Assembly (NCBI RefSeq): GCF_057098645.1
Contig: NZ_CM169472.1
DNA length: 64,000 nt
Direction: 5' to 3' (one strand)
Shown here: piece by piece, positions 61,301-64,000 of the stretch
Layout: each line of letters opens with the position of its first letter
How positions within the stretch are numbered: position 1 is the stretch's first letter
Made by a program: the position numbers

Positions 61301-64000
61301 GGTAAATCATGACAAATCCTTTATCAATGACTCTTTGCAGACCTTTCCAGGATTAATTCTTTTTTTCTTGCCCTGGATTCGTCTGCCATTTCCTGATTTT
61401 TATATTTATATACTCTAAATAATTCGAGTTGCAGGAAGGCGACAAGCGAGTGAATCGCCAGGAGCTTACATAAGTAAGTGACTGGGGTGAACGAACGCAG
61501 TCGCAGTTCATGCAACTTGAAGTATGACGAGTATAAATGGAATGGTACATGGGCAAATATATTCGTCCCTTATCCGATGCGGTATTTACCATCGCATCTG
61601 ATGACCTGTGGATCGAGAGTTTAGCGATCCAACAATTACACACCACGGCAAATTTACCCAACATGCAGCGCGTAGTGGGGATGCCAGATTTACACCCCGG
61701 ACGCGGCTACCCGATTGGCGCAGCGTTCTTCTCCGCAGGCCGTTTTTACCCAGCACTGGTCGGCAATGATATCGGCTGTGGCATGGCGCTATGGCAAACA
61801 GATATTCTCGCTCGCAAATACAACGCCGATAAGTTTGAAAAGCGATTATCAGCTTTGGATGACGTTGCTGAAGAAAGCTGGCTGGAGGAAAACCTGCCGT
61901 CAGCATTTGCACAGCATCCGTGGCGCAGCTCGCTTGGCTCTATCGGTGGCGGCAATCATTTCGCTGAACTGCAACAAGTTGATCAAATCATCAACGCTGA
62001 ACTGTTTGCACTGGCAGGTCTGGATGCGCAGCATCTGCAACTGCTGGTTCATAGCGGCTCGAGGGGGGGTGCCCCTATTAAGTTGTCAAGCATGTTATGA
62101 CGCCTGCGGGGTATAAAAAGTCCCGTCGCGCATCATGGCGAACAGAACGTCGCAGCGTCGTCTCGCCAGGGCGATAAGCGCCTGATTGTGTCGTTTTCCC
62201 TGACTCATTTTGCGGGTGTAGTAAGCCCTGGAGAGCGGATCCCTGAGCGCGGCGAAGGCCGACAGGAACAACGCCCGTTTGAGAGCTTTATTACCCCGTC
62301 GCGAGGGATGCTCACCGCGTATTGACGAGCCGGATCGCCGAGTTACCGGCGCAAGGCCAGCATAAGCAGCGAGATGTGCGGCAGAGGCGAAGGCGCGGCA
62401 GGCGACCTCGGTGAGGAGTCTGGCTGCGGTCCTGACACCGACTCCGGGCATACTGGTCAGGACCGGGTAAAGAGGGTGAGCAAGAACTCGCTGTTCTACC
62501 TCAAGCACCACCTCGTCTCTTTGCTTACGCAGCGTGATGAGCTGGAGTGCCAGACGTGGCAGTACTACGGCAGCGGCATTCGTGCCGGGAACGACGACGG
62601 TTTGTTCGGCCAGTGCCTGAGCTATGTCTGCTGCAAGGCGTTTACCCAGACGAGGCGCAAGTTTGCAGAGCTGGGCTGCCAGCTTCTTCTCACCCAGCGA
62701 AGCGAGTTTTTCTGGTGAGGGATATCGCTGGAGAAGATCGAGTACCGCCGGGTGATCAAGTCTCGGACCGAGAACGCGCTCCAGTGCCGGATGTATCTGG
62801 GTCAGAAGGCCGCGGATACGGTTGCTGGCCTGCGTTGTCTGTGCGGCAAGATCATCATCGAAGCCGCAGAGCATGGAGAGTTCGGCGATTTGCTCGTCAG
62901 CCAGTTTCAGCGTGCGTAGCGCGTGAGGCAGGGTACGGGCAGCTTCGGCAATGATGGCAGCGTCACGAGCATCAGTTTTAGCTTCACCGGCGTGTAAGTC
63001 GGCTATGCGGCGCATGGCCAGTCCAGGGAGGTATCCGACAAGGACTCCTTCTGAGCGGGCAACGGCGACAGGTAACGCACCGATGGTAGCTGGCTGATCA
63101 ACAACCAGCAGTATCTGACCATGTTGTTTCAGGTCAGATATTAGCGACCTGAGTTTGTTTTCGTCGTTGGGTAATGCTTTATCGAACAGGCGTTTACCTG
63201 AACGATTAATGGCTACAGCGTGATGCGTATCTTTACCGACATCAACGCCGATAAAGACCTGGACGGATTCGTAATCGCTGGATTCGGTCATTCTGTCTCC
63301 CTTGTATATGGGTTAACCAGATAACCACGGGGAGCAGGTACCGGCATCCACGTTACAGACGGTCCCGGCAAAAGTGCCTGACCTGACCCCTATTAGCGGT
63401 TACCAGCGCCCCACCAGACCCGGTGACATCACCCCCCGGATCATGGACGACTGGGGGCAGTAATCATGCCGGGTCTGGCTGGCTAACACCCCATTATAAG
63501 GGGTACGAATAAAGTAACGGGGCAGTCTATTTTACAGCGGCATATTGCCTCGTTTTCGCATCATGGTTTGCCTGAAGGCAGTGACGATGCGCTACGGTAC
63601 ATTGCGGAACATGACGATGCGCTGGCATTTGCGCGTATTAATAGCCAGATGATCGCTTTGCGCATAATGCAACAGGTTAAGGCCACGGGAAGTCCGGTTC
63701 TGGATGTGGCGCATAACTTTGTTAGCGCGTGTCAAATCGGCGATCAACAGGGCTGGTTGCATCGTAAAGGTGCCACGCCGGATGACAACGGTCTGGTGAT
63801 TATTCCCGGTTCACGCGGTGATTACTCCTGGCTTGTACAGCCTGTTGCGAACGAAAAAACGCTCCACTCGCTGGCGCATGGGGCAGGGCGTAAATGGGGG
63901 CGCACCGAGTGTAAAGGGCGTCTGGCAGCGAAATACACGGCGACGCAACTCTCGCGTACTGAACTTGGCAGTCGGGTAATTTGTCGCGATAAACAACTCA

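What the first reader, a model, noticed from the sequence alone, without database searches (positions are those of the whole stretch)
62066..63500. IS110-family element is the only complete non-IS3 mobile element here; exact ends and target need defining
IS110-family elements lack terminal inverted repeats and do not make target duplications, so ends cannot be read directly; they were inferred from interruption of the host ORF. Some members target specific sequences (REP elements or transposon inverted repeats), so the disrupted site within a conserved RtcB motif is worth defining.
Basis: inference. Interest (0 to 1): 0.3.

Follow-up and report, generated by a model that had tools for sequence, protein, structure and literature searches.

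The report
ISEc20 insertion in rtcB G-tract
This is an ordinary copy of the known E. coli insertion sequence ISEc20 (IS110 family), which carries its own guide ("bridge") RNA that matches a run of G/C bases inside the rtcB gene, so its position there is explained rather than mysterious.

Summary
The element is ISEc20 (IS110 family, IS110 group), on the minus strand. Its IS-specific sequence is window 62070-63518 (1,449 bp). One further C/G, at 62069 or 63519, cannot be assigned, which gives a 1,450-bp unit rather than 62066-63500. It has no terminal inverted repeats. It splits an rtcB2-like gene straight after the HSGSRG codons, inside a poly-G tract. The 227-nt left end has the layout of a bridge RNA: two internal loops with covariation-supported stems across 64 relatives. 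One loop carries ACUGCCCCC and GGGGGGUG, which match the target ACTG-C(n). The other carries AUAGGGG(U)CA and GUAACGUG, which match the element's own ends ATAGGGGCAC|GTTAC. The same site in strain 2014C-3061 has isogenic empty alleles with a pure G11 run. There, occupied minus empty is exactly 1,450 bp and the left target guide matches 9/9. This implies a circle junction GGGGCA-C-GTTAC, which would rebuild a TTGACA-N17-TACTTT promoter. The crossover cannot be placed more precisely than the shared C because of the homopolymer, and this window's own pre-insertion allele was not found. This is a known element of a known mechanism, so interest is low.

The parts
61537..62068 (+). 5' fragment of the rtcB2-like gene, ending ...LLVHSGSRG followed by the G-run
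   Evidence: ORF list and Pfam RtcB hit. RefSeq annotates 'RNA ligase RtcB family protein, missing C-terminus' in the collinear genome.
62063..62069 (.). G7 run, which is the C-run to the right of the IS on the IS strand (attR flank). The base at 62069 is the shared C that cannot be assigned to the IS or the target.
   Evidence: Sequence. Comparison with other copies and with empty alleles.
62069..63518 (-). ISEc20, a 1,450-bp unit. The IS-specific part is 62070-63518.
   Evidence: 99.9% identity to annotated ISEc20 copies. Constant sequence across about 30 contexts. Occupied minus empty equals 1,450 bp at the same site in strain 2014C-3061.
62069..62078 (-). Right-end donor half ATAGGGGCAC (LD plus the crossover C)
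   Evidence: Same sense as the LDG in the left-end RNA. It covaries with the LDG in relatives (GGGG/GGGA/GAGG variants).
62084..62089 (-). TTGACA, a -35-like hexamer in the 26-nt right end
   Evidence: TTGAC is found at this distance from the end in 57/57 relatives. Joined to the left end it gives TTGACA-N17-TACTTT. No promoter is called in the integrated state.
62095..63291 (-). Transposase/recombinase gene (398 aa plus stop). Residues D17, D65, D107 and D110 are read from sequence motifs; only S320 sits inside a significant alignment to IS621.
   Evidence: Pfam PF01548 and PF02371. The C-terminal domain aligns to the IS621 recombinase 8wt6 at E=1e-14, with the SGSS motif aligned. Motif positions.
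63334..63505 (-). Predicted bridge RNA: 5' stem-loop, target-binding loop and donor-binding loop
   Evidence: Fold of the left end. A 64-sequence alignment gives 34 pairs that are 96.5% paired, 17 with compensatory changes; 0/500 shuffles reach the observed values and slid controls give 7 or fewer.
63414..63479 (-). Target-binding loop. The outer stem is 63469-63479 with 63414-63423. LTG ACUGCCCCC is at 63453-63461. RTG plus adjacent bases, GGGGGGUG, is at 63430-63437.
   Evidence: Coordinates. The outer stem is a 10-nt perfect inverted repeat (I14) with covariation. The LTG equals the target's left flank ACTGCCCC(C). The RTG is complementary to CAC-CCCCC at attR.
63334..63407 (-). Donor-binding loop. 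LDG AUAGGGGUCA is at 63384-63393. The inner stem-loop is 63361-63383. RDG/HSG GUAACGUGG is at 63348-63356.
   Evidence: Coordinates. LDG/RE covariation. The RDG is invariant and complementary to CAC|GTTAC. Stems covary.
63511..63518 (-). Left-end terminus GTTACTTT, comprising the RD half (GTTAC) and the -10-like TACTTT (63511-63516)
   Evidence: First constant bases in all copies and all relatives. Junction-promoter geometry.
63519..63522 (.). G4 run, which is the C-run to the left of the IS on the IS strand (attL flank, target-derived)
   Evidence: Homology of uninterrupted rtcB alleles begins at 63519, and other IS copies also align through these 4 bases.
63519..64000 (+). 3' fragment of the rtcB2-like gene (GQSILQRHIASF...), running off the window end. 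prfH follows in the collinear genome.
   Evidence: Frame translation. Annotation of the collinear genome. Intact loci for comparison.

Best explanation
Window 62069-63518 (minus strand) is an intact copy of ISEc20, an IS110-group element.

Shown directly:
- It encodes a DEDD/Ser recombinase.
- It has a long left end (227 nt) and a short right end (26 nt).
- It has no terminal inverted repeats.
- It sits in the G-tract that encodes the Gly-rich stretch after HSGSRG in an rtcB2-like gene.

Inferred from sequence, from comparison and from the published IS621 paradigm: the left end is transcribed into a bridge RNA with two internal loops.
- The target-binding loop carries ACUGCCCCC. This has the same sense as the target's left half, so it would pair with the bottom strand. 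It also carries GGGGGGUG, which is complementary to the top strand right of the crossover.
- The donor-binding loop carries AUAGGGG(U)CA, which equals the right end ATAGGGGCA, and GUAACGUG, which is complementary to CAC|GTTAC.

The element would excise or copy out as a 1,450-bp circle whose junction GGGGCA-C-GTTAC rebuilds a TTGACA-N17-TACTTT promoter for the RNA. The recombinase-RNA complex would then exchange strands between that junction and a C-run target, ideally 5'-ACTGCCCCC|CCCCC(C), at a single shared C. The products are attL ...CCCC|GTTAC and attR GGGGCAC|CCCCC..., which is what is seen here.

The insertion splits rtcB2. Because the IS is antiparallel and prfH is coupled downstream, it probably also silences prfH. 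That last step is inference.
For: Identity:
- 99.9% nucleotide identity to copies annotated as ISEc20.
- Pfam domains.
- Homology to the IS621 recombinase structure, with the SGSS motif aligned.
- Durrant et al. 2024 list the ISEc20/ISSfl4 cluster as IS110 group with the bridge RNA predicted in the left end (PMC11208160, supplement).

Ends:
- About 30 contexts share GTTAC...GGGGCA(C).
- Homology of the empty allele starts at 63519.

Target:
- Left flanks read C at positions -1 to -4 in 27-30 of 30 sites.
- Right flanks read C at positions +1 to +5 in 16-22 of 25 sites.

The decisive pair is strain 2014C-3061. Its attL is ACTG-C5|GTTAC and its attR is GGGGCA-C7-GCGAG. Empty alleles with 100% identical flanks and a pure G11 run occur in at least 24 complete genomes. 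The difference is exactly 1,450 bp, and the LTG matches ACTGCCCCC at 9/9.

RNA:
- Two-loop structure with 17 covarying pairs, and controls far lower.
- The LDG covaries with the right end in two independent variants.

Circle junction:
- Three copies, and one relative, have the right end joined to native ...CCCGTTAC... sites as GGGGCAC|GTTAC.
- Junction-promoter geometry is conserved in 57/57 relatives.

Mechanistic frame: IS621 bridge RNA and structures (PMC11208160, PMC11208158).
Against: - Nothing here is experimental. No transcript, circle or transposition event was observed.
- Rfam has no matching family.
- Because target and flanks are homopolymeric, the crossover cannot be fixed beyond the shared C. 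Readings with a CC, CA or AC 'core' each fit part of the data, and the target 'core' (CC) would differ from the donor's (AC) at one base.
- This window's own pre-insertion allele was not found. Its junction C-counts (4 + 7) imply a 10-nt run, one nt short of any in-frame allele. The closest empty allele (C325) is an odd 8-nt variant.
- At focB the only empty allele in 5,426 genomes is interrupted (CCCC-T-CCCCCC), and the occupied site lacks 2 nt relative to a conservative exchange.
- LTG positions 1-4 show no significant covariation with flanks among relatives.
- The -10 of the predicted junction promoter is weak (3/6).
- Tandem copies show 4 C's at the inter-copy junction, not 1.
Confidence: 0.85

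Rival explanations
1. Same element and same mechanism, but the target in this lineage was the common interrupted allele (ACTG-CCCC-A-CCCCCC, encoding GVG/GLG) rather than a pure run. Under this reading the target's 'AC' equals the donor's 'AC' core, and 1-2 nt were lost at one junction during or after integration.
For: - Interrupted alleles are the norm. PEC408 and 042 read CCCC-A(A)-CCCCC(C). L190 carries the majority GVG allele.
- RTG GGGGGGUG is perfectly complementary to CACCCCCC, which occurs in the interrupted allele.
- O145 rtcB and focB have an attL identical to the left part of the interrupted allele, and an attR identical to its right part with A in place of N.
- No pure-run focB allele exists in 5,426 genomes.
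- Some copies keep the interrupting base at attR: L021 reads CAC-T-CCCC, and the relatives L147 and L155 do likewise.
Against: - It needs a non-conservative loss of 1-2 nt, for which no mechanism is known.
- Where isogenic pairs are clean they are conservative with pure-run alleles: 2014C-3061 with the G11 allele, and L015 with the C10 variant seen in 2 of 57 empty sites.
- The roughly 1,100 genomes with the interrupted CTCGC allele yielded no occupied example in my sample, whereas the rare G11 allele did.
Confidence: 0.25
2. The position in rtcB is not RNA-guided. The recombinase protein, or DNA structure at G-tracts (for example slipped or G-rich structures), selects the site, and the matches to left-end sequences are coincidental or serve only for end recognition.
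For: - The guides are frozen across the whole subfamily, so there is no natural reprogramming to demonstrate target-guide covariation.
- LTG positions 1-4 do not covary with flanks.
- The relative L106 has altered loop bases yet still sits in a C-run.
Against: - 9/9 identity of ACUGCCCCC to the rtcB target, plus the complementary G-run on the other side of the same internal loop, in exactly the architecture shown experimentally for IS621.
- Donor-side guide/end covariation is present.
- Homologous recombinases are inactive without the RNA (PMC11208160).
Confidence: 0.05
3. The element is an IS1111-group member, or another IS family, with its guide (seekRNA) in the right end and sub-terminal inverted repeats.
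For: The Pfam domains are shared by both groups.
Against: - The right end is only 26 nt and the left end 227 nt.
- No sub-terminal or terminal inverted repeats.
- The structured, covarying RNA is in the left end.
- Durrant et al. classify ISEc20/ISSfl4 as IS110 group with the RNA in the left end.
Confidence: 0.01

Closest known systems
ISEc20 / ISSfl4 (ISfinder IS110 family; RefSeq 'IS110-like element ISEc20 family transposase', WP_001358663.1)
   Same: The nucleotide sequence is 99.9% identical to annotated copies, and the same insertion in rtcB is present in 34 of 5,426 complete E. coli genomes. This is that element.
   Different: Nothing detectable. I could not compare with the ISfinder reference itself, so the curated length and ends are unchecked. 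Searches for 'ISEc20' in the paper library and in the supplementary files of one paper (Durrant et al. 2024) turned up no base-level description of its guides or target.
IS621 and its bridge RNA (Durrant et al. 2024, PMC11208160; Hiraizumi et al. 2024, PMC11208158); also ISCro4/IS622
   Same: - DEDD plus Ser recombinase.
- Long left end encoding an RNA with a 5' stem-loop and two internal loops.
- Left guides have the same sense as the top strand, and right guides are complementary to it.
- An 8-nt LDG-like match and a 9-nt LTG.
- Bases 3' of RTG/RDG can pair with the partner DNA ('handshake').
- The -35 is in the right end and the -10 in the left end across the circle junction.
   Different: - Only the C-terminal domain aligns significantly (E=1e-14), and the protein is 398 aa against 326.
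- The target is a C/G homopolymer, not a REP sequence.
- RDG pairing looks contiguous rather than interrupted.
- No unambiguous dinucleotide core is repeated at both junctions. Only one C is shared, and the donor AC differs from the target CC at the first base.
- The guides are invariant across the subfamily.
IS110 of Streptomyces coelicolor and relatives (same protein cluster in Durrant supplementary file 4)
   Same: ISEc20 is listed in the same protein cluster as IS110, ISSfl4, ISBma3 and others. Relatives at 72-82% amino-acid identity in Actinobacteria and Betaproteobacteria share ends and guides.
   Different: I did not examine IS110 itself. The relatives I fetched are unnamed copies.
IS1111 group (IS4321/IS5075, ISEc11) with seekRNA in the right end
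   Same: Same recombinase family and RNA-guided site choice.
   Different: The guide RNA is at the other end, with long sub-terminal inverted repeats and different targets. None of these features is present here.

Membership tests
IS110 family (IS110 group) | [quoted passage not shown] | tested here: met
   PF01548 at E=6e-49 and PF02371 at E=7e-22. The SGSS motif (S320) aligns to the IS621 catalytic-Ser motif. Acidic residues D17, D65, D107 and D110 lie in the expected motifs. The second acidic residue is D rather than E.
IS110 family (IS110 group) | No terminal inverted repeats | tested here: met
   No inverted pair with arms at both termini. The ends read GTTACTTT... and ...AATAGGGGCAC.
IS110 family (IS110 group) | Long left non-coding end and short right end (the reverse holds in the IS1111 group) | tested here: met
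   The left end is 227 nt (63292-63518) and the right end 26 nt (62069-62094).
IS110 family (IS110 group) | Left end encodes a bridge RNA with target- and donor-binding internal loops complementary to the target and to the RE-LE junction | tested here: met
   Structure supported by covariation. Loop sequences match the target flanks and the element's ends. The LDG covaries with the right end. Expression and function were not tested.
IS110 family (IS110 group) | A short core (typically a dinucleotide) shared by target and donor and present at both junctions | tested here: inconclusive
   Only a single C is demonstrably shared (occupied minus empty = 1,449 + 1). The homopolymer context hides any longer core, and donor AC versus target CC would differ at one base.
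IS110 family (IS110 group) | Sigma-70 promoter reconstituted across the circle junction | tested here: inconclusive
   In silico joining gives TTGACA-N17-TACTTT here, and TTGAC(A/G/T)-N16-18-TACTAT/TACCTT/TACTTT or GTTACT in 57/57 relatives. No circle or transcript was observed. No promoter is called in the integrated copy.
ISEc20 (named element) | Near-identity to the reference ISEc20 sequence over its full length | tested here: met
   99.9% identity over 1,561 nt to RefSeq loci whose transposase PGAP names the ISEc20 family. The protein cluster ISEc20;ISSfl4 in Durrant's supplement matches the N-terminal sequence.
ISEc20 (named element) | Agreement with the ISfinder-curated length, ends and target | not testable with these tools
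   ISfinder is not available here.
RtcB family (host gene) | RtcB domain, and the rtcB2-prfH operon context between yafP and pepD | tested here: met
   Pfam RtcB at E=3e-29 on the 5' fragment. Intact loci read dinB-yafP-rtcB-prfH-pepD, and the collinear genome shows both fragments plus prfH.

The most novel reading that the evidence does not exclude
The ISEc20 subfamily may be a 'homopolymer-seeking' branch of the bridge-RNA recombinases.

- Its guides are frozen from Burkholderia to Arthrobacter on a C10-11 tract.
- The target and donor share only one crossover base, because their 'cores' differ (CC versus AC).
- In E. coli, where such tracts are rare, it preferentially lands in minority alleles in which a point mutation has fused two short runs. 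An example is rtcB2 GVG to GGG, which gives G11.
- Side products would follow from the mismatched crossover region. These include right ends partly overwritten by target C's, and rearrangements at attL-like CCCGTTAC pseudo-sites.
Probability: 0.35. Interest if true: 0.45.

Novelty: already known. Interest (0 to 1): 0.25.

Why it matters
For annotating this genome, the result gives the IS ends to within one base, explains why the element sits inside the RtcB motif, and identifies the inactivated gene as the RtcB2 partner of PrfH.

More broadly it is a worked natural example of bridge-RNA targeting. The guide can be read from the sequence, and it predicts the insertion site with a 9/9 match. It also shows that a homopolymeric target blurs the crossover register.

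None of this changes current understanding of IS110 elements. The only possibly useful lead is the subfamily-wide fixation on poly-C/G tracts with non-identical target and donor cores.

Tried and rejected
1. An Rfam scan of 61900-63700 at E<=1 gave no family. This is uninformative, because no bridge-RNA model matched.
2. A literature search for 'ISEc20' found only incidental mentions.
3. Reading a 'CC dinucleotide core duplicated at both junctions' (circle junction GGGGCA-CC-GTTAC) is rejected as the general rule. It predicts 2 added C's, whereas the clean pair adds 1, and class II junctions show a single C.
4. The idea that the A of GGGGCA is target-derived (insertion 5' of the interrupting base) is rejected. 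focB empty sites have T there while the occupied site has A. Class II sites also lack any A in the native sequence.
5. Using the tandem-copy junction as a proxy for the circle junction is rejected. Its 4 C's would put the -35 and -10 elements 20 nt apart, and it is better explained as a second insertion into the flanking run.
6. A direct search for a circle or tandem junction in viral contigs found none.
7. I tested whether the variable 5' part of the LTG covaries with flanks in 53 relatives. It was not significant (best register 325/5000 shuffles).
8. Paralogous 'empty' sites for L024 were not isogenic and were set aside. The L025 empty sites do not fit any simple model.
9. I counted loop linker lengths against IS621 to fix the core register. 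The 5' and 3' strands gave conflicting answers (CA versus AC), so I report only the shared C.
10. The RNAalifold consensus pairs LTG with RTG and LDG with RDG. I rejected those helices as artefacts of invariant complementary guides and scored the structure without them.
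Full report
**What is at the coordinates**

The last 4.5 kb of the window is the E. coli dinB-yafP-rtcB-prfH region. The first 50 kb of the window is 99.93% identical and collinear with strain Z1323HEC0422, and the annotation of the following 15 kb of that genome matches the ORFs at the end of the window. An RtcB-family ORF starting at 61537 (Pfam RtcB, E=3e-29) stops making sense after ...LLVHSGSRG. It resumes in another frame at 63519 as GQSILQRHIASF....

Between the two fragments, on the minus strand, lies a 398-aa ORF (63291..62095). It carries Pfam DEDD_Tnp_IS110 (E=6e-49) and Transposase_20 (E=7e-22). Its C-terminal domain aligns to the IS621 recombinase of PDB 8wt6 (E=1e-14), with the catalytic-serine motif SGSS aligned at S320.

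A megablast of 62000-63560 against 5,426 complete E. coli genomes gives full-length hits at 99.6-99.9% identity. Their annotation is 'IS110-like element ISEc20 family transposase' between two RtcB pseudogene fragments. So the element is ISEc20. Ends of this IS occur in 1,333 of 5,426 genomes. This particular rtcB junction occurs in 34.

**Ends**

I oriented everything in the direction of the transposase gene, which is the window's minus strand. I then compared about 30 other ISEc20 copies in unrelated contexts: 31 viral-contig loci, plasmid and chromosomal copies, and focB insertions.

- The constant sequence begins GTTACTTTATTCG (window 63518 downward).
- It ends ...GCTTGACAACTTAATAGGGGCA (window 62070).
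- It is almost always followed by C.
- Uninterrupted rtcB alleles align up to 62068/62069 and from 63519.
- There are no terminal inverted repeats.

The IS-specific sequence is therefore 62070-63518 (1,449 bp).

The flanks are homopolymers. G7 lies at 62063-62069 and G4 at 63519-63522. On the IS strand these read as C4 on the left and C7 on the right.

**Target**

Across distinct sites the four bases left of GTTAC are C in 27-30 of 30 sites, often preceded by G. The five bases right of GGGGCAC are C in 16-22 of 25 sites. Beyond that the composition is random.

The cleanest empty/occupied pair is the same rtcB site in strain 2014C-3061.

- attL reads ACTG-C5|GTTAC.
- attR reads GGGGCA-C7-GCGAG.
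- A query made of its flanks joined by a pure G11 run finds 100% identical, intact rtcB genes in at least 24 complete genomes. These read CTCGC-G11-CAG and encode HSGSRGGGQ.
- The majority allele of that clade has a T in the run (GGGGGG-T-GGGG, encoding GVG).
- Occupied minus empty is 7 + 1,449 + 5 - 11 = 1,450 bp.

So the mobile unit is the 1,449 specific bases plus one C. Target and donor share that C at the crossover.

A second conservative pair is the prophage site of L015. Its attL reads TTG-C5|GTTAC and its attR reads GGGGCA-C6-AGCG. This fits the C10 allele seen in 2 of 57 empty sites, but not the CCC-A-CCCCCC allele seen in the other 55.

**The RNA in the left end**

The 227 nt between the left terminus and the start codon fold into three parts:

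- a 5' hairpin;
- a long stem enclosing an internal loop;
- a second stem enclosing another internal loop with an inner hairpin.

A protein-based scan of one genome per species returned 80 relatives at 72-82% amino-acid identity. They come from Burkholderiaceae, Oxalobacteraceae, Microbacteriaceae, Arthrobacter and others. Their left ends align along the whole length.

I removed the guide-guide helices that RNAalifold draws between invariant complementary loop strands. The remaining 34-pair structure has these statistics:

- It is 96.5% paired over 64 sequences.
- 17 pairs show compensatory changes.
- 0 of 500 shuffles reach the observed values.
- Versions slid by 1-3 columns give at most 7 such pairs and 27-48% pairing.

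This is the architecture described for the IS621 bridge RNA (PMC11208160 and PMC11208158). Durrant et al. already list the ISEc20/ISSfl4 cluster as IS110 group with the bridge RNA predicted in the left end (supplementary files).

**Guides**

In the first loop, the 5' strand reads ACUGCCCCC (63461-63453) and the 3' strand reads GGGGGGUG (63437-63430). ACUGCCCCC is identical to the target top strand ACTGCCCCC in rtcB: 9/9 in the G11 allele and 8/8 of what remains at attL here. GGGGGGUG is complementary to CAC-CCCCC, which is the top strand of attR.

In the second loop, the 5' strand reads AUAGGGGUCA (63393-63384). It repeats the right end ATAGGGGCA with one extra U. The 3' strand reads GUAACGUGG (63356-63348). 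It is complementary to CAC|GTTAC, that is, the right end joined to the left end through one C.

The donor-side pairing is supported by covariation among relatives:

| Right end | LDG | Elements |
|---|---|---|
| ATAGGGGCAC | AUAGGGG(C/U/A)... | 35 |
| ATAGGGACAC | AUAGGGAC | 8 (plus one with AUGGGGAC) |
| ATAGAGGCAC | AUAGAGGCA | 5 |

The target-side guides are invariant across the subfamily, and all relatives sit in C-runs. Target programmability therefore cannot be shown by natural variation. The variable first four LTG positions do not covary significantly with flanks.

**Circle junction and promoter**

Four observations point to a junction GGGGCA-C-GTTAC:

- the +1,450-bp difference at the clean pair;
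- the RDG complementarity;
- three ISEc20 copies (L009, L020, L034) and one relative (L133) whose right end is followed by GTTA(C/T)..., at places where paralogous empty sequences natively read ...TATCCCGTTACGATT...;
- promoter geometry.

On the last point, the 26-nt right end contains TTGACA (62089-62084). Joining it to the left end through one C gives TTGACA-N17-TACTTT. The same operation gives TTGAC(A/G/T)-N16-18-TACTAT/TACCTT/TACTTT or GTTACT in 57 of 57 relatives. No sigma-70-like site is called in the integrated copy. This matches the junction promoter reported for IS621. It remains a prediction here, and the -10 is weak.

**What remains unresolved**

The crossover register cannot be fixed inside a homopolymer. 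Reading the core as AC (donor) against CC (target), with cleavage just before GTTAC, fits several things:

- the 3'-strand linker counts of IS621;
- the handshake logic;
- the 2014C-3061 pair.

Reading the core as CA fits the 8-nt LDG better. I therefore report only the shared C.

Junction C-counts differ between lineages:

| Lineage and site | attL C's | attR C's |
|---|---|---|
| This window, rtcB | 4 | 7 |
| O145, rtcB | 4 | 6 |
| 2014C-3061, rtcB | 5 | 7 |
| Strain 300709, focB | 4 | 6 |
| O145, focB | 6 | 5 |

. The flanks show that the rtcB insertions lie in at least two different alleles (CTCGA versus CTCGC).

For this window no isogenic empty allele exists in the collection. The nearest, C325 at 98.9%, has an odd 8-nt GGGCGGGG. 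For focB the only empty allele is CCCC-T-CCCCCC, and the occupied site is 2 nt short of a conservative product. Three explanations remain open:

- tract-length polymorphism before insertion (one assembly shows a 63-G tract);
- slippage after insertion;
- loss of bases when interrupted tracts are used.

I keep the last as a rival, at 0.25, for the pre-insertion state of this lineage.

**Consequence for the host (inference)**

The IS splits rtcB2 inside the codons of its conserved HSGSRG-G-x-G motif and is antiparallel to it. In intact loci prfH overlaps the end of rtcB, and prfH is present downstream in the collinear genome. The RtcB2-PrfH module is therefore probably inactive in this strain.

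**Verdict**

This is a real, intact, already catalogued element that behaves as the published IS110/bridge-RNA model predicts. The added value is base-level ends, within one ambiguous base, and an explicit guide-target reading that explains the site. Interest is low.

Noticed in passing
L001 (E. coli C325) about 1860-1880, homologous to window 62055-62069/63519-63530: The closest uninterrupted rtcB allele (98.9% to the window flanks) reads CTCGA-GGG-C-GGGG-CAG. It is 3 nt shorter than all other alleles seen (HSGSRAGQ). It could be a natural variant or a scar of imprecise IS loss.
   Followed up: partly
L189 (E. coli Z1323PEC0008) 131-193: The rtcB G-tract is 63 G long in this assembly, and the gene is annotated as frameshifted. 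This is either extreme tract instability or an assembly artefact. Another genome (H147) has G12.
   Followed up: partly
L190/L191 and, 78 hits (rtcB2 alleles): At least 24 complete genomes carry an apparently intact rtcB2 with an 11-nt G homopolymer inside the catalytic-motif codons (GGG instead of GVG). Tracts of this length are unusual in E. coli coding sequence and could be slippage-prone.
   Followed up: partly
L035 (plasmid pO177B1 of SMN152SH1) 440-3350; L036 (SMN197SH3 chromosome): There are head-to-tail tandem arrays of two and at least three ISEc20 copies. The inter-copy junction reads GGGGCA-CCCC-GTTAC, and in one case GGGGC-CCCC-GTTAC. This is consistent with reinsertion into the C-run left beside a resident copy.
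   Followed up: partly
L008, L017, L026, L036 (ISEc20); L106, L113, L125, L140, L173 (relatives), right ends: The last 1-5 bases of the right end are replaced by C's: GGGGCCC..., ATAGGG-C9, ATAGG-C11, ATAG-C13. It looks as if target-strand sequence overwrote the donor side of the crossover region. Such copies would mismatch their own LDG.
   Followed up: no
L009, L020, L034 right junctions; L020 4380-4440, L014 about 12530-12600, L009 about 7940-8010 (native sites); L133 (Cupriavidus relative): The right end is joined to sequences that natively read ...CCCGTTAC..., which resembles attL. L009 shares its left flank with L023 and L032 but has a different right flank. This suggests IS-end-mediated deletion or inversion at pseudo-sites.
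   Followed up: partly
L106-L185: ISEc20 relatives at 72-82% amino-acid identity occur in Burkholderiaceae, Oxalobacteraceae, Microbacteriaceae and Arthrobacter, with essentially identical ends and guide sequences. The IS is 57% G+C against 51.5% for the window, which suggests import from high-GC hosts.
   Followed up: partly
L106 (Paraburkholderia bannensis) left end: This copy has altered target-loop bases (LTG ...CCGCC and RTG GGAGGG) yet still sits in a plain C-run, and its right end is overwritten by C's. It may be a decaying copy.
   Followed up: no
window 59727-61231: dinB is followed directly by yafP with overlapping stop and start codons. The yafN-yafO toxin-antitoxin pair found between them in PEC408 and 042 (and in K-12) is absent here, as it is in C325.
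   Followed up: no
window 47001-48881 (from the collinear annotation, L187): A truncated hypothetical gene and an Hcp-family T6SS effector gene lie next to an IS3-family element downstream of tRNA-Asp. This looks like a remnant island at aspV. The rrn operon lies at about 32169-37271.
   Followed up: no
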